Shown here: in pieces, positions 2,239-14,447 of the stretch | How the letters are laid out: the number at the start of each line of letters is the position of its first letter | Position numbering within the stretch: position 1 is the first letter of the stretch | Sequence record: NC_042564.1 | Strand: one strand, 5' to 3' | Origin: Escherichia phage Bf23 | Length of the DNA: 14,504 nt | Program-made: the position numbers and the translations under genes | Notes under the pieces: generated by a model | Databases searched by the model: none | What the model saw: the letters and a program-made list of their open reading frames with translations, nothing else | What the model was told of the DNA's origin: nothing

Positions 2239-2314
2239 TGGAGCGGCTAGAGGGAATCGAACCCTACTCAGCGAGGCTTGGAAGGCCTGCGACACAACCC
2301 GTGTGCTTAACCGC
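2239..2314 (-). tRNA. tRNA-Gly (anticodon TCC)
   Basis: encoded CCA, T-loop TTCGATT, anticodon loop CTTCCAA (plus-strand aggc/ttggaag/gcct), acceptor 2243-2249 pairs 2308-2314 with one G-U. Confidence 0.6.
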
Positions 2315-2322
2315 TTATTGTT

Positions 2323-3247: not shown

Positions 3248-3332
3248 AAGGAACAGAAGGATTTGAACCTTCACGAGATAGACCATTTATCTCAACCGCT
3301 TTTAAGGTATATTTCTAGGAGTGGATGTTCCT
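3248..3332 (-). tRNA. tRNA-like gene, class II length (85 nt), isotype undetermined (possible Leu-TAA) or pseudogene
   Basis: perfect T-arm gaagg/atttgaa/ccttc and perfect 7-bp acceptor (3249-3255/3326-3332) but no canonical anticodon stem; CCA not encoded; contains hairpin agata/gaccatt/tatct. Confidence 0.35.
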
Positions 3333-3386
3333 AGTAAACCTATTCGGCAGTCCCGTCTACCAATTCCGGCATATTCCAAGAATTTT

Positions 3387-3768: not shown

Positions 3769-3801
3769 AATAATAAGATGATGCCTCTATCACACCAGGC
3801 A

Positions 3802-3880
3802 GTTACGCCTCGCTGGGATTCGAACCCATTAAAACAGCTCAACCGAGATAGTAGGTTTAATTTACTCTGACCATCAAATT
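3802..3880 (-). other. orphan T-arm-like element (degenerate tRNA remnant?)
   Basis: tggg/attcgaa/ccca T-arm-like hairpin at 3814-3828 but no pairing partner for an acceptor stem and no anticodon arm. Confidence 0.25.
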
Positions 3881-3957
3881 TGGTGCGTGACAAGGGATTC
3901 GAACCCTCAAAACCCGACTTCTAAGGACGGTATGTATGCCAATTCCATCAATCACGC
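3881..3957 (-). tRNA. tRNA with anticodon TAG (Leu-type anticodon) on a short-variable-arm scaffold; isotype uncertain
   Basis: encoded CCA, T-arm aaggg/attcgaa/ccctc, acceptor 3885-3891/3951-3957 with one G-U, anticodon loop CTTAGAA with one U-U mismatch in stem, 3-bp D-stem, only 5-nt variable loop. Confidence 0.4.
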
Positions 3958-4036: not shown

Positions 4037-4062
4037 AAATTCTTTAGTTTACTAAGGCTATT

Positions 4063-4230
4063 AGCTCGGCGTAACTATAGCACCTTCGCTTCGAGCGGAA
4101 GGAACTACGTCATCTCGCAAACCCGATACACTATTCAGTTGCCGCTGAATCTAGTGGACTAATCTAGAACCTCTCCCAAATCGTAGGGATCGTGCTTTTT
4201 GGCAGCCAGTCCTAGGTCGAGCTAATACCT
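4063..4230 (-). ncRNA. candidate structured RNA in promoter-proximal leader (no ORF)
   Basis: long-range inverted repeat ggctattagctcgg (4063-4076) vs gtcgagctaatacc (4217-4230) enclosing about 140 nt with internal hairpins (ttcag/ctgaa 4133-4148; ctag/ctag); no ORF with RBS. Confidence 0.3.
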
Positions 4231-4274
4231 TAGTGAACTATGATGAGGATTTCCCCTCATCAATTTATATAAAT

Positions 4275-4303
4275 ATTATAACAAGAAATTAAGCATTAAG
4301 CAA
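4275..4303 (-). promoter_or_regulatory. sigma70 promoter (T5 early-promoter-like)
   Basis: minus strand TTGCTT (revcomp 4298-4303) - 17 nt - TATAAT (revcomp 4275-4280); A-run upstream; 8-bp hairpin tgatgagg/cctcatca (4241-4262) immediately downstream of predicted start. Confidence 0.7.
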
Positions 4304-4409: not shown

Positions 4410-4487
4410 TGGTGGATTGCCTGGGATTCGAACCCAGAACTGACGGATTAAAGGTCCGCTACTCTTATCCAGTTGAGCTAGCAATCC
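4410..4487 (-). tRNA. tRNA-Lys (anticodon TTT)
   Basis: encoded CCA, perfect T-arm ctggg/attcgaa/cccag, perfect acceptor 4414-4420/4481-4487, D-arm GCTC/GAGT, anticodon loop CCTTTAA (C at position 33). Confidence 0.6.
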
Positions 4488-4951
4488 AAATTCTCTACTA
4501 ATAGTTTGAAAGCGTCTAACAGAGGTACTTCAAACCATTCTCCTGATACTTTGTAGTCTTTCAGAAGATTATGTAATGCTTTTTCAGTTCTTCTCTTGTC
4601 CGAGGAGAATCTAAAATGGTATAACTTGTAATCACGATATGGCGAATATGTTTGATAACTAGACAGTCTTTCATTTACGTCTACTGTCATACCTATCTTA
4701 TAGAGTCCAGGCCATGCTGGGTTACCTATTACATATACAAACCCTTCTGTTATAGGGATTTTATGCTCCCTTTTATACTTCAGCAGGTTTAACGCTGCCA
4801 TTCTATAACAGAACTTAAACTCTGAGGATTTTAGTTTACCTTCTTTACCAGATATTTCGTTATACTTCTCCATATACCTACGTATTAAGGAGTCAGTAAT
4901 AGTAAAGTGCTTTGGAAGATCCAGGGCTTGAAGTACACTGTTAATAAGCAT
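4478..4951 (-). CDS. T5orf172-family (GIY-YIG-like) domain protein, 157 aa; putative homing-type nuclease
   Basis: ORF track; motif GFVYVIGNPAWPGLYKIGMTVDVNERLSSYQTYSPYRDYKL typical of the T5orf172 domain; AAGGAAG SD; paralog of 6749-7267; 3' end overlaps 5' end of tRNA-Lys. Confidence 0.8.
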   Translation of the reverse strand: MLINSVLQALDLPKHFTITDSLIRRYMEKYNEISGKEGKLKSSEFKFCYRMAALNLLKYKREHKIPITEGFVYVIGNPAWPGLYKIGMTVDVNERLSSYQTYSPYRDYKLYHFRFSSDKRRTEKALHNLLKDYKVSGEWFEVPLLDAFKLLVENLDC

Positions 4952-5345: not shown

Positions 5346-5372
5346 ATGAATTTTTAATAAATTTACTTATTG

Positions 5373-5472
5373 TGTAGGCCACCTGGGGGCTATCAACCCC
5401 ACGGCTGACAAAGAAGTTTGCGAGACTTCTCTTAAAAGCCAGAATAGACCCGCCGATCTATCGGAACCTACA
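5373..5472 (-). ncRNA. tRNA-like cloverleaf element (about 100 nt), noncanonical; strand uncertain
   Basis: outer stem tgtagg(5373-5378)/cctaca(5467-5472) enclosing three hairpins: ggggg/cccc (5385-5400), agaagt/acttct with 7-nt loop (5412-5430), ccga/tcgg (5453-5464); no TTCGA T-loop, no CCA. Confidence 0.3.
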
Positions 5473-5620
5473 TAATAAGTAAACTTTCGTTTACTTACAC
5501 CTACTTGGTCAGGAGGATTTTCAGCGACTAGAACCGGCCGGAAACTTATCGCCTTGTTTTACTACCACCTTACGGACGCACAAGTTGTTACACGAATGCG
5601 CAAGCTCGGTTTGGTAGATT

Positions 5621-5694
5621 TGGTGCGGTCGGAGGGAATCGAACCCCCAACTTCTGGTTGGCAACCAAAAATTATACCCTTTAACTACGAACGC
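5621..5694 (-). tRNA. tRNA-Gly (anticodon GCC)
   Basis: encoded CCA, T-arm gaggg/aatcgaa/ccccc, anticodon loop TTGCCAA with G-U in stem, acceptor with one mismatch. Confidence 0.55.
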
Positions 5695-5703
5695 AAAATA
5701 AGT

Positions 5704-5824
5704 CATTCTAGGCAGGATTCGAACCTGCTATCACTTGTGCGGACTTACGAGAACCATTCTTTCACTCGAATCGAACGAGCTTCTGCCCTAGCCAAGCTGG
5801 TTTCCCCATCAACCACGCTAGAAT
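5704..5824 (-). ncRNA. composite tRNA-like element with two T-arm motifs (disrupted or expanded tRNA?)
   Basis: perfect T-arm gcagg/attcgaa/cctgc (5712-5728) and perfect 7-bp acceptor-like pairing attctag(5705-5711)/ctagaat(5818-5824), but 121 nt long with a second T-arm-like ctcg/aatcgaa/cgag (5765-5779) and no canonical anticodon arm. Confidence 0.3.
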
Positions 5825-5946
5825 GTTTGATTGTTTTCAGTGCAAGAGTCCGAGTCTTGGACACGACCGCTTCGCAAGTACATAGGCAGCTTATCATGAG
5901 TCAGCACTTCCGAATTGCTAGCTCCGTGTTCTGCACTGAAATTTTA

Positions 5947-6294
5947 TTAGTTTAACCGGAAAGTATTATCTACTTCACCATTAATTGTTCGGCATTCCTC
6001 TGGGATTGTCGGAGTGGCCTTGTATTCCCACCACTCAGCACCGTCATACTCCCCACGTTCTAGCCAAGTTCCATCGGCAAACCATACATTACCATAAAGT
6101 AATTGTCCACCGTATCCAGAATCATATTCAAAGTCTAGGTTATTAAGAAAATCCTCAATATCTTCTTCTGTATAGCCTAAAGGTAGTACCCAAACTTTTT
6201 TATCCCCATAATACCCGAATTCTATTTTAATACACTTAACTTCAGAATTAGTATTTTTTAAGGCAAGTAACAACTCTTCTTTGGCATTACGCAT
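5947..6294 (-). CDS. hypothetical protein, 115 aa
   Basis: ORF track; ATG at 6292-6294; Trp/Tyr/Gly-rich; weak SD. Confidence 0.55.
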   Translation of the reverse strand: MRNAKEELLLALKNTNSEVKCIKIEFGYYGDKKVWVLPLGYTEEDIEDFLNNLDFEYDSGYGGQLLYGNVWFADGTWLERGEYDGAEWWEYKATPTIPEECRTINGEVDNTFRLN

Positions 6295-6694: not shown

Positions 6695-6772
6695 TGGCGG
6701 TTCCTGCTGGATTCGAACCAGCAACCCTCAACTTAACAAGATGCCGCTCTAACCAATTAGAGCTAAGGAACC
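6695..6772 (-). tRNA. tRNA-Asn (anticodon GTT), tentative
   Basis: encoded CCA, perfect T-arm gctgg/attcgaa/ccagc, perfect acceptor 6699-6705/6766-6772, D-arm GCTC/GAGC, anticodon loop TTGTTAA but two mismatches in anticodon stem. Confidence 0.5.
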
Positions 6773-7267
6773 ATATAAGTCAGAACTAGAGTTAATACGT
6801 TCTAGATATTTACTAAGATCTCTAGAATTTATACTAAACCACTCATGTTCTTTTAAATCTTTGAAATACTGGTGAATTAGTTTTTCACCTTTTCGTTTGT
6901 CAAACCAAAAAGACCAATGCTCTAACTTATAATCCCTATAAGGGGAATAAGTCTGATATTGAGCTAATCTCTCTTTTGGATTTTGACTCATGCCTATTTT
7001 ATACTGATTTTTCCATGCAGGATTACTAATACAGTATACAAAACCTTCAGAAATAGGAAGTTTATTTTCCTGCTTAAACTTTATAAAGGAAAGTGCAGCA
7101 AGTTTTCTCGAATACATAGTATTTGTATTCTTTTTGGTATTACCATTGGTTCCTGAAAGATTTATATATTCTTCCATAAATCTTTGGATTAGTTCTGCAG
7201 TTATATAGAAGGGCTCATTAGTAACAACGCCTTTCTTTACCAAACTATCAAAAACTTTTGTATGCAC
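6749..7267 (-). CDS. T5orf172-family (GIY-YIG-like) domain protein, 172 aa; paralog of 4478-4951
   Basis: ORF track; GTG start with AAGGAAAGG SD; motif GFVYCISNPAWKNQYKIGMSQNPKERLAQYQTYSPYRDYKL; 3' end overlaps 5' end of tRNA 6695-6772; the T5orf172 domain is, as I recall, named after a 172-aa ORF of phage T5. Confidence 0.8.
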   Translation of the reverse strand: MHTKVFDSLVKKGVVTNEPFYITAELIQRFMEEYINLSGTNGNTKKNTNTMYSRKLAALSFIKFKQENKLPISEGFVYCISNPAWKNQYKIGMSQNPKERLAQYQTYSPYRDYKLEHWSFWFDKRKGEKLIHQYFKDLKEHEWFSINSRDLSKYLERINSSSDLYGSLALIG

Positions 7268-9872: not shown

Positions 9873-9950
9873 TGGTGGCTCCCCGAGGATTCGAACCTAC
9901 GTACCTTCCAGTTATGAGCTGGGTGCTCATACCATATGAGCTTGAGAACC
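9873..9950 (-). tRNA. tRNA with anticodon CAT (Met, initiator or Ile2 type)
   Basis: encoded CCA, acceptor 9877-9883/9944-9950 with two G-U, D-arm gctc/gagc, anticodon loop CTCATAA; T-stem has only 3 good pairs. Confidence 0.5.
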
Positions 9951-13650: not shown

Positions 13651-14152
13651 TTTAAGTATTTTTAAGAACTCTCGTAAAAACTCTTAAAAATACAGACGAT
13701 ACCGGGAGAGTCATAAGTCTCACTCATTAAGTATTTCAAGACAAAATACAGTAACGTCTATTATTTTCCAGTTTAAGTCAAGGTGACTTAGTGGTTATGT
13801 CCTGCGGTATGCTGAGGACTCGGTTAGGCTAGGGTCATGACTCCCCACCTTTTTGCTGCTACTCAACAGGAGTTATCGCGAATTACCTGTGCTATTGTGC
13901 ACCATTAGTGGCATCTCTCATGCCAGCATTTCCCACTTTGTGGATAGTTTGAAAAACTACTCCGATATGGAGAAAGAACTTCACTATCCTAGAATACCTT
14001 CTAAAGTTCTTCTTTAGCCTGGACATAGTTAAATCGTAATAAAACTATTCAGCAGACTGGTTGGTTAGTCTGGAACCAACTACCGCGTGGTTTAGGCAGT
14101 GCGCAACTAACCTCGGAAGCTTTTACGTTAAAAGCATCAGTTATCCAGTTCT

Positions 14153-14224
14153 TACCGTCCGTAGGATTCGAACCTACATCTTCCACCAGTTACGGCTTGA
14201 TAATACCAATTATACTAGGACGGC
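14153..14224 (-). tRNA. tRNA-like gene, isotype undetermined (possible pseudogene)
   Basis: perfect T-arm gtagg/attcgaa/cctac (14161-14177) and 6-7 bp acceptor pairing (14154-14160/14218-14224) but no recognizable anticodon stem; CCA not encoded. Confidence 0.35.
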
Positions 14225-14447
14225 AGTGTTACTACATAAGTGATTTCCACACCCCACTATTTATAAATTAGAGAAGAGTTTAGGGGAGAGGTTTCAGACG
14301 CCCCATTTTATACGTTCTAGCCACTAACCGGGATTGCCGCCCCCTGTGTACTAGTTTTACAACTAACCCACCGACTCTATTCAGTGCACTCCGGTTGGGA
14401 TTCTGCACTCAGCGTAATCGGCTCGCTGTTCCCTAATTTATGAATAT

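What the first reader, a model, noticed from the sequence alone, without database searches (positions are those of the whole stretch)
5704..5824. Composite tRNA-like element with duplicated T-arm
A perfect acceptor-like pairing spans 121 nt and encloses two TTCGA-type T-arm motifs but no anticodon arm. This pattern would fit a tRNA gene disrupted by an internal duplication or insertion, possibly linked to nearby homing-endonuclease activity.
Basis: seen in the sequence. Interest (0 to 1): 0.45.

Follow-up and report, generated by a model that had tools for sequence, protein, structure and literature searches.

The report
Phage T5-type tRNA-like stable RNA2
This is not a broken tRNA gene: it is phage BF23's copy of T5 "RNA2", a conserved tRNA-shaped RNA in which a structured module replaces the anticodon loop; it occurs in many unrelated phages and its function is still unknown.

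Summary

The window is the phage BF23 tRNA region. The element is the ortholog of T5 "rna2", which GenBank annotates as a "tRNA-like stable RNA with unknown functions".

It is not a decayed tRNA. A covariance model finds it in T5-like phages, Acinetobacter T4-like phages and dozens of uncultured phage contigs. Across 65 distinct sequences, 94.8% of cells pair (59% when shuffled), and RNAalifold independently recovers the fold.

The most conserved part is the module that replaces the anticodon loop: GGG-Y-N-G ... C-GUAAN-UCC-GCA.

- It is co-oriented with tRNA arrays.
- It lacks the encoded CCA that 21 of 23 BF23 tRNA genes carry.
- It has no Rfam family.
- It was not found in cellular genomes.
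- A viable T5 variant lacks the region.

Best reading: a non-decoding tRNA mimic, processed like a tRNA, that engages an unidentified tRNA-binding factor. The locus is already known. The breadth of the family and its consensus fold appear undescribed.

The parts
5701..5825 (-). Whole RNA2 gene: C(-1), positions 1-121, plus the 3 trailing nt (ACU) that correspond to the 3' end of the 125-nt T5 rna2 annotation
   Evidence: Aligns without indels to T5 rna2 (NC_005859 32959-33083) and to phage 5 rna2. Model R1 scores it 112 bits.
5818..5825 (-). Acceptor stem, 5' strand (A1-G7 = 5824-5818), plus C(-1) at 5825, which can pair with G121
   Evidence: Inverted repeat I1. All 7 pairs covary in the family, with 4-6 pair types each.
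5704..5711 (-). Acceptor stem, 3' strand (C114-U120 = 5711-5705), plus G121 (5704) at the discriminator position. It is followed by ACU, not CCA.
   Evidence: The EH2 homolog has G followed by CCA at this position.
5798..5815 (-). D-arm: UGGUU / AACCA stem with loop GAUGGGGA, which contains the conserved GG
   Evidence: The stem covaries (for example UGCCG/CGGCA in Kamaji and GCUC/GAGC in many others). The G at the G19-like position is 92% conserved and A22 is 98% conserved.
5793..5797 (-). Anticodon-stem-equivalent helix, 5' strand (G28-G32)
   Evidence: Pairs with 5733-5737. All 5 pairs covary and 96.9% of cells are paired.
5733..5737 (-). Anticodon-stem-equivalent helix, 3' strand (C88-U92)
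5782..5792 (-). Conserved core module, 5' half: internal loop GCUA (A36 is 80% conserved), G37G38G39, C40 (Y in 100%), A41, G42, A43
   Evidence: GGG is 98-100% conserved and G42 is 100% conserved, although neither was imposed by the retrieval pattern. N43 covaries with N75 (UA 24, AU 14, GC 13, CG 5).
5738..5750 (-). Conserved core module, 3' half: U75, C76, bulge G77-U78-A79-A80-G81, U82C83C84 (pairs with GGG), G85C86A87
   Evidence: Variants L132 and L060 keep this module while replacing the inner hairpin. Part of this conservation was imposed by the search pattern. Acinetobacter-phage members found by other routes have CAUAAGUCCAUA or CGUAAGACCAUA.
5764..5780 (-). Inner T-arm-like hairpin: GCUCG-UUCGAUU-CGAGU
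   Evidence: Present in 60 of 65 distinct members. Its three variable pairs are 100% paired with 4-6 pair types on the unfitted alignment. The loop UUCGAUU is 90-100% conserved.
5751..5763 (-). Purine-rich junction strand GAAAGAAUGGUUC. The AUGG at 5754-5757 is a candidate D-loop-like partner of the inner T-loop (inferred).
   Evidence: AUGG follows the inner hairpin in 40 of the 60 members that have it. The strand tolerates a roughly 55-nt insertion in L044/L056.
5712..5728 (-). Outer (true) T-arm: GCAGG-UUCGAAU-CCUGC
   Evidence: The stem covaries.

Best explanation
SHOWN. The element is the BF23 ortholog of bacteriophage T5 'RNA2'. It belongs to a structured RNA family found almost only in phage or phage-like contigs. 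Members have an authentic tRNA body: a 7-bp acceptor stem (plus a possible -1:73 pair in T5-like phages), a D-arm with GG, a T-arm, and a 5-bp anticodon-stem equivalent. The anticodon loop is replaced by a conserved module: a 3x3 or 4x3 internal loop (NNA/GCA), the helix GGG:UCC, a 5-nt bulge GUAAN, and a G-C pair followed by a covarying pair. This is usually capped by a second T-loop hairpin followed by an AUGG strand.

INFERRED.
1. It is transcribed within the polycistronic tRNA operon transcript. The tRNA-processing enzymes cut it out, with RNase P acting at the 5' end, which explains why it accumulates as a stable RNA.
2. It cannot decode, because it has no anticodon. It probably is not charged by any one synthetase, because acceptor pairs and discriminator vary freely.
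3. It most likely works as a tRNA mimic. The tRNA body gives it stability and access to tRNA-binding partners. The invariant module, and where present a second 'elbow' formed by the inner T-loop and AUGG, binds, sequesters or recruits a conserved tRNA-recognising factor. That makes it an accessory host-takeover or counter-defence function, not a core replication function.

The partner has not been identified.
For: Identity:
- 99.9% identical to BF23, and 97% identical to T5 over the aligned 80% of the 1.1-kb query, in the same position.
- Colinear with T5 and phage 5 'rna2: tRNA-like stable RNA with unknown functions'.

Structure and selection:
- Covariation on an unfitted MAFFT alignment: 91.1% paired against 60.3%, score 0.755 against 0.18, slid controls 0.10-0.16.
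- Covariation on 65 distinct model-aligned sequences: 94.8% against 59.2%, score 0.84 against 0.17.
- RNAalifold independently returns 30 of the same 31 pairs.
- Core nucleotides are 97-100% conserved, including GGG and G42, which no search pattern imposed.
- Variants keep the core but swap the inner hairpin for a GAAA tetraloop (L132) or a plain hairpin (L060).

Distribution:
- 436 phage records, mostly Demerecviridae, plus Acinetobacter phages 133, Acj9 and AB1I1T.
- 96 model hits in viral and metagenome loci.
- Only 1 of 36 pattern matches in 185,579 species genomes is a member, and it lies on a 167-kb, tRNA-rich contig.
- No match in 5,426 complete E. coli genomes.

tRNA-like processing context:
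- Co-oriented with flanking tRNAs wherever tRNAs are present, often 3-10 nt away.
- U at position -1 in 36 of 63 members.
- No promoter-like site of 10/12 or better between it and the upstream genes. The strong P13a-type promoter lies downstream.

Not a chargeable tRNA by design:
- 21 of 23 BF23 tRNA genes encode CCA, but RNA2 has G|ACU. Only 4 of 65 members encode CCA.
- The discriminator varies (A 43%, U 25%, rest G or C) and every acceptor pair varies.

Accessory role:
- T5Mos carries the deletion 30661-38625, which spans rna2 at 32959-33083, and still grows on laboratory E. coli (PMC11464382).
- Phage tRNA regions are documented counter-defence loci: tRNA-Lys against PARIS (same paper) and tRNA-Tyr against retron Eco7, as cited in PMC10644984.
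Against: - No binding partner, RNA ends, modification or phenotype was examined here. Everything beyond 'conserved, structured, tRNA-shaped and phage-restricted' is inference.
- 'Stable RNA' rests on a GenBank annotation. I could not read the primary papers.
- Conservation of CGUAANUCCGCA is partly an artefact, because that string was used to harvest most distant members.
- No conserved neighbouring protein exists across the family, so a phage-encoded partner is not general.
- A decoy role would require high abundance, which is untested.
- Near-CCA tails (CUA, CAA, ACA) are common, and the host CCA-adding enzyme could complete the 3' end, so charging is not excluded.
Confidence: 0.55

Rival explanations
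1. Disrupted tRNA gene or pseudogene. A tRNA was inactivated by an internal duplication or insertion, possibly caused by homing-endonuclease activity, and is now decaying.
For: - The tRNA framework is real, and the insert carries a T-loop-like hairpin.
- T5orf172/MUG113-domain ORFs are within 1 kb.
- BF23 lacks tRNA-Trp (PMC10644984).
Against: - The insert is the most conserved part.
- Compensatory changes maintain every helix, including the inner hairpin.
- It is conserved across unrelated phage groups and 436 isolates.
- It is annotated as a stable RNA in T5.
- It stays intact while its flanks are rearranged.
Confidence: 0.03
2. Pure processing punctuation. The tRNA-like fold exists only to attract RNase P and 3' processing enzymes, so that neighbouring mRNAs, tRNAs and rnaIV are separated. 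The excised RNA itself would have no function.
For: - It lies between an ORF (5947-6294) and tRNA-Gly/rnaIV inside a polycistronic unit.
- The acceptor stem varies freely as long as it pairs.
- U at -1 is the commonest base.
- tRNA-like punctuation is an established principle (mitochondrial transcripts, MALAT1 mascRNA; my own knowledge).
Against: - RNase P needs only the acceptor/T-arm minihelix and the elbow. That does not explain 97-100% conservation of about 20 nucleotides in the anticodon-arm module across very different phages.
- It also does not explain why minimal variants retain that module (L132, L060).
- Ordinary tRNAs already flank many copies at 3-10 nt, so extra punctuation would be redundant.
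Confidence: 0.15
3. Chargeable tRNA-like RNA. After CCA addition it is aminoacylated and used outside normal decoding, in a tmRNA-like or amino-acid-donor role.
For: - An intact acceptor/T-arm minihelix and elbow.
- A few members encode CCA, including the close relative EH2 (G+CCA).
- Near-CCA tails are common.
- T4 tRNAs lacking an encoded CCA are completed by the host enzyme (my own knowledge).
Against: - No conserved identity set. Discriminator and acceptor pairs vary without restriction, and G3:U70 occurs only in Kamaji.
- The would-be anticodon region lies more than 8 bp further from the elbow than in a tRNA.
- No ORF or tag-like segment is present, and ARAGORN calls no tmRNA.
- CCA is absent, although 21 of 23 neighbouring tRNA genes encode it.
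Confidence: 0.07
4. Intron-containing tRNA. The GGG...UCC hairpin is excised and the halves are joined to give a decoding tRNA.
For: - Removing positions 37-84 would leave a 5-bp stem closing a 7-nt loop in BF23 (GCUA|GCA).
- ARAGORN calls the minimal member L132 'tRNA-Pro(ggg)'.
Against: - The residual loop would be 6 or 7 nt depending on the member, with C at position 33 and C at 37 instead of U33 and a purine at 37.
- The implied anticodons are inconsistent (UAG, GAG, others).
- The insert is far more conserved than the exons.
- At about 48-55 nt it is too small for a group I intron, and Rfam finds no intron family.
- E. coli has no bulge-helix-bulge splicing endonuclease (my own knowledge).
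Confidence: 0.03

Closest known systems
Bacteriophage T5 RNA2 (gene rna2, T5s06; also annotated in Salmonella phage 5, AJ604531)
   Same: Orthologous. It has the same position relative to the T5.067-like ORF, no indels, and only a few substitutions, several of them pair-preserving (A-U to G-U in the acceptor stem, G-C to G-U in the T-stem). The annotation already calls it a tRNA-like stable RNA of unknown function.
   Different: In BF23 it is followed by tRNA-Gly(GCC) and about 140 extra nt before the rnaIV homolog, whereas in T5 rnaIV follows directly. The complete BF23 genome record OR083247 leaves the element unannotated.
Canonical tRNA (Rfam RF00005)
   Same: Acceptor stem, D-arm with GG, T-arm with UUCGAAU, a short variable loop and a helix at the anticodon-stem position. 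It lies in a tRNA array on the same strand. Many distant members even have the textbook UAGCUCAGUUGGUUAGAGC D-arm.
   Different: No 7-nt anticodon loop and no anticodon. About 55 nt of conserved structure takes its place. There is no Rfam tRNA hit and no ARAGORN call, and no encoded CCA, unlike 21 of 23 neighbouring tRNA genes.
Bacteriophage T4 species 1 RNA (rnaC), and species 2 RNA (rnaD)
   Same: Small stable RNAs of unknown function encoded at the end of a phage tRNA cluster. rnaC ends in a tRNA-like T-arm (CCGGG-UUCGAAU-CCCGG) and an acceptor-like pairing.
   Different: No detectable homology. Model R1 hits only the true tRNAs in the T4 region, and the RNA2 core motifs are absent or not colinear. 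This is an analogy, not family membership.
tmRNA tRNA-like domain
   Same: An acceptor/T-arm mimic without an anticodon. In the Acinetobacter-phage members the D-arm is reduced to a GG-containing loop, as it is in tmRNA (comparison from my own knowledge).
   Different: No mRNA-like reading frame and no pseudoknots, and it is about one third of tmRNA's length. ARAGORN finds no tmRNA. Rfam matches only the 17-nt T-arm at 9 bits.
Bacterial Y-RNA-like YrlA, a tRNA mimic bound by Rsr (comparison from my own knowledge)
   Same: A non-decoding RNA of about 100-130 nt that copies the tRNA elbow (D- and T-loops). Some are phage-encoded.
   Different: The topology is opposite. In YrlA the 5' and 3' ends form the Ro-binding stem and the tRNA-like part is internal. 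Here the ends form the acceptor stem and the special module is internal. There is no Rfam match at E<=10. I did not search for Rsr.

Membership tests
T5 RNA2 (annotated stable RNA of Tequintavirus) | Sequence orthology and synteny with T5 rna2 (NC_005859 32959-33083) | tested here: met
   Gap-free alignment with a few substitutions, and the same upstream ORF and leader.
T5 RNA2 (annotated stable RNA of Tequintavirus) | Accumulates as a discrete stable RNA in infected cells | not testable with these tools
   This rests on the GenBank annotation only.
Canonical tRNA | Acceptor stem, D-arm and T-arm of the cloverleaf | tested here: met
   All three helices are present and covary.
Canonical tRNA | 5-bp anticodon stem closing a 7-nt loop with U33 and an anticodon | tested here: not met
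   The stem is present, but it opens into a 55-nt module. There is no ARAGORN call and no RF00005 match.
Canonical tRNA | 3' CCA (encoded in this phage's tRNA genes) | tested here: not met
   G|ACU here, against CCA in 21 of 23 BF23 tRNA genes. Post-transcriptional addition was not testable.
tmRNA | tRNA-like domain plus tag-peptide reading frame and pseudoknots | tested here: not met
   No ARAGORN tmRNA call. RF00023 matches only the T-arm, at 9 bits against a gathering score of 47.
tRNA-Sec (8/5 architecture) | 8-bp acceptor stem with 5-bp T-stem, 6-bp D-stem, long variable arm, UCA anticodon | tested here: not met
   An 8th pair (C-1:G73) is possible in T5-like members only, and other members have 7 bp (L047, L215). 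The variable loop is 4-5 nt. No UCA loop exists, and RF01852 gives no hit on this element.
tRNA pseudogene / disrupted tRNA | Relaxed constraint: lineage-restricted, helices decaying, insert not conserved | tested here: not met
   94.8% of cells are paired with abundant compensatory change. The insert core is 97-100% conserved, and the distribution across phages is wide.
Intron-containing tRNA (group I or bulge-helix-bulge) | A recognisable intron fold, and canonical anticodon loop after excision | tested here: not met
   No Rfam intron match. The residual loop would be 6-7 nt with C33 and C37 and inconsistent anticodons.
T4 species 1 RNA (rnaC) | Homology to T4 rnaC | tested here: not met
   Model R1 finds no match to rnaC or rnaD in T4 66000-76000.
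YrlA / Y RNA | Ro/Rsr-binding terminal stem with an internal tRNA-like module. Rfam model match. | tested here: not met
   No Rfam match at E<=10, and the topology is reversed. The presence of Rsr was not tested.

The most novel reading that the evidence does not exclude
RNA2 would be the founding member of a widespread, phage-restricted class of non-decoding 'two-elbow' tRNA mimics. Their invariant anticodon-arm module (GGG-Y-N-G / C-GUAAN-UCC-GCA) would be a decoy or inhibitor for a tRNA-targeting host factor, for example an anticodon nuclease of an anti-phage defence system, or another universal tRNA-binding enzyme. In some lineages it would work with a phage YqeY-like tRNA-binding protein encoded immediately upstream. 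A second, unrelated class with a nested T-arm plus D-arm (L248 and others) would then show that phages evolved this design more than once.
Probability: 0.2. Interest if true: 0.75.

Novelty: already known. Interest (0 to 1): 0.45.

Why it matters
T5 and T4 have carried tRNA-like "stable RNAs of unknown function" in their tRNA clusters since the 1970s-80s, and none has been explained. Two things follow from the work here.

First, the BF23/T5 RNA2 is not a phage-specific oddity or a dead tRNA. It belongs to a strongly constrained family shared by T5-like phages, Acinetobacter T4-like phages and many uncultured phages from soil, water and gut.

Second, the constraint is concentrated in a small module that replaces the anticodon loop. 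That gives experimenters a precise target for mutagenesis (GGG, GUAA, GCA, inner T-loop/AUGG).

Phage tRNA regions have recently been shown to neutralise tRNA-cleaving defences (PARIS, retron Eco7). A conserved non-decoding tRNA mimic in the same operons is therefore an obvious candidate for a new kind of counter-defence or host-takeover RNA.

There is a practical consequence too. Genome annotation pipelines miss the element: the complete BF23 record leaves it blank, other records place hypothetical proteins over it, and Rfam has no model for it.

Tried and rejected
1. Rfam at gathering and permissive thresholds. Nothing was found but a 17-nt T-arm match to tmRNA.

2. An alternative fold in which GGUU/GUCC closes a 7-nt anticodon-like loop, CUCGUAA (C32-U33-CGU-A37-A38 in BF23). 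I rejected it for three reasons. Position 33 is A, C, G or U in other members and covaries with N43. GGG(37-39) is invariant. L060 and L132 lack the GG needed for that stem yet keep GGG:UCC.

3. K-turn, sarcin-ricin (bulged-G), UAA/GAN, GNRA-like and 11-nt receptor readings of the internal loops. By inspection, none fits the strand order or the conserved bases.

4. Resemblance of C-GUAA-N to the tRNA-Tyr anticodon loop or to the colicin-E5 YGUN site. Only GUAA is shared with BF23's own tRNA-Tyr arm (GCUGA-CUGUAAA-UUAGU). I estimated that a match of this size is not statistically meaningful, and keep it only as a lead.

5. Homology with T4 rnaC or rnaD. None was detected.

6. A conserved neighbouring protein. 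All-against-all BLASTP of ORFs within 4 kb of the 64 aligned members from fetched loci found none that is general. A YqeY-like protein recurs upstream in only 3 lineages.

7. A constant flanking tRNA identity. None was found.

8. Search patterns that gave mostly chance or coding matches: GGTTCRATTCCNNNGAAAGAA, my mis-spaced AATGGNTNCNCGTAANTCCGCA, and the two-T-loop pattern.

9. Literature searches for primary data on T5 RNA2. Nothing was found in the searchable library. The BF23 tRNA-region record NC_042564 is not in the collections.

Full report
**1. The observation**

All 23 tRNA genes that ARAGORN finds in the window lie on the minus strand, so the finding must be read on that strand. It reads C(-1)-AUUCUAG-CG-[UGGUU-GAUGGGGA-AACCA]-G-CUUG-GCUA-GGG-CA-GA-A-[GCUCG-UUCGAUU-CGAGU]-GAAAGAAUGGUUC-UC-GUAAG-UCC-GCA-CAAG-UGAUA-[GCAGG-UUCGAAU-CCUGC]-CUAGAAU-G.

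Both TTCGA-type hairpins are there (5712-5728 and 5764-5780). There is also a D-arm, and a helix exactly where an anticodon stem belongs, but no 7-nt anticodon loop. ARAGORN and Rfam do not call it a tRNA or a tmRNA. Taken alone, the fold is not better than shuffled sequence (z = -1.23). The case for reality is therefore comparative.

**2. What it is**

The window is the tRNA gene region of phage BF23, a T5-like Tequintavirus (99.9% identity to OR083247). The element aligns without indels to the feature that the T5 and Salmonella phage 5 records call "rna2 / RNA2: tRNA-like stable RNA with unknown functions". The T5 feature starts at the same C and ends 3 nt after the terminal pairing. The complete BF23 record leaves the stretch unannotated. 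The thing itself is therefore already known, and its function is not.

**3. It is a family under selection, not a wreck**

BLAST finds it in 436 phage records, nearly all Demerecviridae. It also finds the internal part in tRNA clusters of Acinetobacter phages.

Exact-pattern scans of viral, metagenome and genome collections brought in many divergent copies. I aligned 27 diverse sequences with MAFFT (A3), wrote down the structure, and counted pairs on that unfitted alignment:
- 91.1% of cells pair, against 60.3% in shuffles.
- 271 cells carry double-sided changes, against 87 in shuffles.
- The covariation score is 0.755, against 0.18 for shuffles and 0.10-0.16 for partners slid by 1-3 columns.

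RNAalifold, given only the alignment, returns 30 of the same 31 pairs.

A covariance model built from A3 (R1) finds 83 + 13 matches of 50-116 bits and about 92-167 nt in the fetched loci. Ordinary tRNAs score 47 bits or less. Two class II tRNA-Ser genes that happen to contain GCGUAAGUCCGCA in the variable arm reach 47-50 bits, so the boundary near 50 bits is not clean.

On the 65 distinct model-aligned sequences, 94.8% of cells pair, against 59.2% when shuffled. That alignment is fitted to the model, so the unfitted numbers are the safer ones.

**4. Anatomy and variation**

The acceptor, D, anticodon-like, inner-T and outer-T helices all show 4-6 pair types per position. The invariant parts are as follows:
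- the two T-loops;
- a G at the G19-like position and A22 in the D-loop;
- the module A36-G37G38G39-Y40-N41-G42 ... C76-G77U78A79A80-N81-U82C83C84-G85C86A87.

N43:N75 next to G42:C76 covaries through all four Watson-Crick pairs (UA 24, AU 14, GC 13, CG 5).

The inner T-hairpin is present in 60 of 65 members and is followed by AUGG in 40 of those 60. It is dispensable, though. L132 replaces it with a GAAA tetraloop, L060 with a plain hairpin, L176/L136/L117 with a different insert, and L044 adds about 55 nt. In every case the module is retained. That points to the module as the functional centre and the inner T-loop as an accessory. It also rules out the alternative "anticodon-like" hairpin I first considered for BF23.

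One caveat applies. The string CGUAANUCCGCA was my main harvesting pattern, so its conservation is partly imposed. GGG, G42 and A36 were not imposed. Members found by other routes (the Acinetobacter phages) differ at only 2-3 of the 12 positions.

**5. Context and maturation**

Wherever tRNAs are present in the fetched flanks, the element has their orientation, often 3-10 nt from a neighbour. There is no constant neighbouring tRNA and no constant neighbouring protein.

In BF23 no promoter-like site of 10/12 or better lies between it and the upstream ORF and tRNA-Asp. The strong P13a-type promoter lies downstream. It is therefore probably cut out of a polycistronic transcript.

U is the commonest base at -1 (36 of 63), as expected for RNase P substrates (my own knowledge).

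CCA is encoded in 21 of the 23 BF23 tRNA genes found by Rfam. RNA2 has G|ACU instead, and only 4 of 65 family members encode CCA. The discriminator and all acceptor pairs vary, so no synthetase identity set is conserved.

A T5 variant (T5Mos) with the deletion 30661-38625, which spans rna2 at 32959-33083, is viable on laboratory E. coli (PMC11464382). RNA2 is therefore dispensable there.

The family is essentially confined to phage or phage-like contigs:
- 47 of 49 pattern matches in viral contigs are members.
- 1 of 36 in 185,579 species genomes is a member, on a 167-kb tRNA-rich contig.
- None was found in 5,426 complete E. coli genomes.

**6. How it most likely works**

Shown: a conserved, structured, tRNA-shaped RNA without an anticodon, phage-restricted, accessory, and embedded in tRNA operons.

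Inferred: it is processed and stabilised like a tRNA, and it acts as a non-decoding tRNA mimic whose invariant module binds, titrates or recruits a conserved tRNA-recognising factor. The inner T-loop with AUGG would form a second elbow-like surface.

I put this at 0.55 overall. Identity and functionality are near certain, and the mimic mechanism is about one in three. A specific decoy role against tRNA-cleaving defence nucleases is attractive, because T5 tRNAs neutralise PARIS and retron Eco7, but it is unproven. The GUAA resemblance to the Tyr anticodon or the YGUN site is weak.

One lead: a YqeY-like gene (PF09424) sits 200-470 nt upstream on the same strand in three lineages. From my own knowledge, YqeY is a tRNA-binding domain related to the GatB tail.

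Rivals:
- Pure RNase P punctuation (0.15). It does not explain the conservation of the module.
- A chargeable tRNA-like RNA (0.07).
- An intron-containing tRNA (0.03).

**7. Comparison with known systems**

It is a member of "T5 RNA2" by orthology. It works like a tRNA mimic, but it fails the defining tests for the following:
- tRNA: no anticodon loop, no Rfam or ARAGORN call;
- tmRNA;
- tRNA-Sec: the 8th acceptor pair is lineage-specific;
- YrlA: opposite topology, no Rfam hit;
- T4 species 1 RNA: no homology, only analogy.

**8. Novelty and verdict**

The locus is already known, as an annotated T5 stable RNA. What I could not find described is the breadth of the family, its covariation-supported consensus and the conserved anticodon-replacement module (five literature searches; no Rfam family). 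I cannot exclude older literature that I could not read.

Interest is moderate at 0.45. It is a real orphan RNA in a model phage, with a clear experimental handle, but it is not a new discovery at this locus and it has no demonstrated function.

Noticed in passing
window 3248-3378 (-): A second elongated (131-nt) tRNA-like element. It has the acceptor GGAAUAU.., a class-II-like D-arm (GCCGGAAUUGGUAGACGGG) and a T-arm (AAGG-UUCAAAU-CCUU), with a long insert between them. The Rfam tRNA model scores it 25.9 bits, below the gathering score of 29, and ARAGORN does not call it.
   Followed up: partly
window 2242-2315 (-): A 74-nt tRNA-like sequence directly 3' of tRNA-Gln(UUG), with the T-loop GGTTCGATTCC at 2253-2263. 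It gets only a sub-threshold hit (tRNA-Sec model, 30.9 bits) and no ARAGORN call.
   Followed up: no
window 9876-9950 (-) and 14152-14225 (-): Rfam calls 9876-9950 a tRNA (38.2 bits), but ARAGORN misses it. The ARAGORN 'tRNA-Ser(act)' at 14152-14225 is one of only two of the window's 23 Rfam-called tRNA genes not counted as encoding CCA.
   Followed up: no
window 5826-5946 (-): The roughly 120-nt leader between the upstream ORF and RNA2 is almost invariant between BF23, T5 and phage 5. It folds with a long-range stem, UUUCAGUGCA.../...UGCACUGAAA (MFE z = -1.89). It is unannotated in T5 and could be another structured RNA or a processing element.
   Followed up: partly
window 5371-5694 (-): 5371-5473 is the homolog of the T5 stable RNA 'rnaIV'. 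BF23 carries about 140 extra nt (5474-5620) plus tRNA-Gly(GCC) (5621-5694) between rnaIV and RNA2, which T5 lacks. Phage 5 has an ORF inserted there instead.
   Followed up: partly
window 3790-3885 (-) and 4056-4230 (-): An orphan perfect T-loop, GGTTCGAATCC (3816-3826), lies between tRNA-Ser and tRNA-Leu with no tRNA called. The region upstream of tRNA-Ala corresponds in position to T5 'rna2H', another stable RNA of unknown function with a long terminal stem, and sits behind a strong promoter-like site near 4270-4300.
   Followed up: no
window 4478-4951 (-) and 6749-7267 (-): Two ORFs with T5orf172/MUG113 domains (GIY-YIG-related, homing-endonuclease-like) are interspersed among the tRNA genes. 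They are the nearest endonuclease-like genes to the element.
   Followed up: partly
L248 2674-2804 (-); also L249, L291, L293, L297, L300, L302, L315: A different class of tRNA-like RNAs of about 131 nt, found in uncultured phage contigs. They have a canonical acceptor, D-arm and T-arm, but the anticodon loop is replaced by a nested T-arm AND a nested D-arm (..GGUGG-AAGGU-UGAGAG-UUCGAUU-CUCUCA-..-UA-GCUU-AAUGGGA-GAGC-A-CCAC..). This is a second, apparently independent 'two-elbow' design.
   Followed up: partly
L009 3068-3508 (+); L055 10551-11000 (+); L125 247-696 (+); L132 1107-1604 (-): A YqeY-like protein (PF09424, E = 6.5e-16 for the L009 copy) is encoded 200-470 nt upstream of the RNA2-like element, on the same strand, in three distinct phage lineages. 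T5-like phages have no such neighbour.
   Followed up: partly
L141 1608-1708 (-); L082 675-761 (+); L128 11051-11137 (+): L141 carries a tRNA with an AU-rich insertion of about 27 nt after the anticodon position. Class II tRNA-Ser genes whose variable arm reads GCGUAAGUCCGCAAGG mimic the RNA2 core string and score 47-50 bits with model R1, so they are false positives near the threshold.
   Followed up: no
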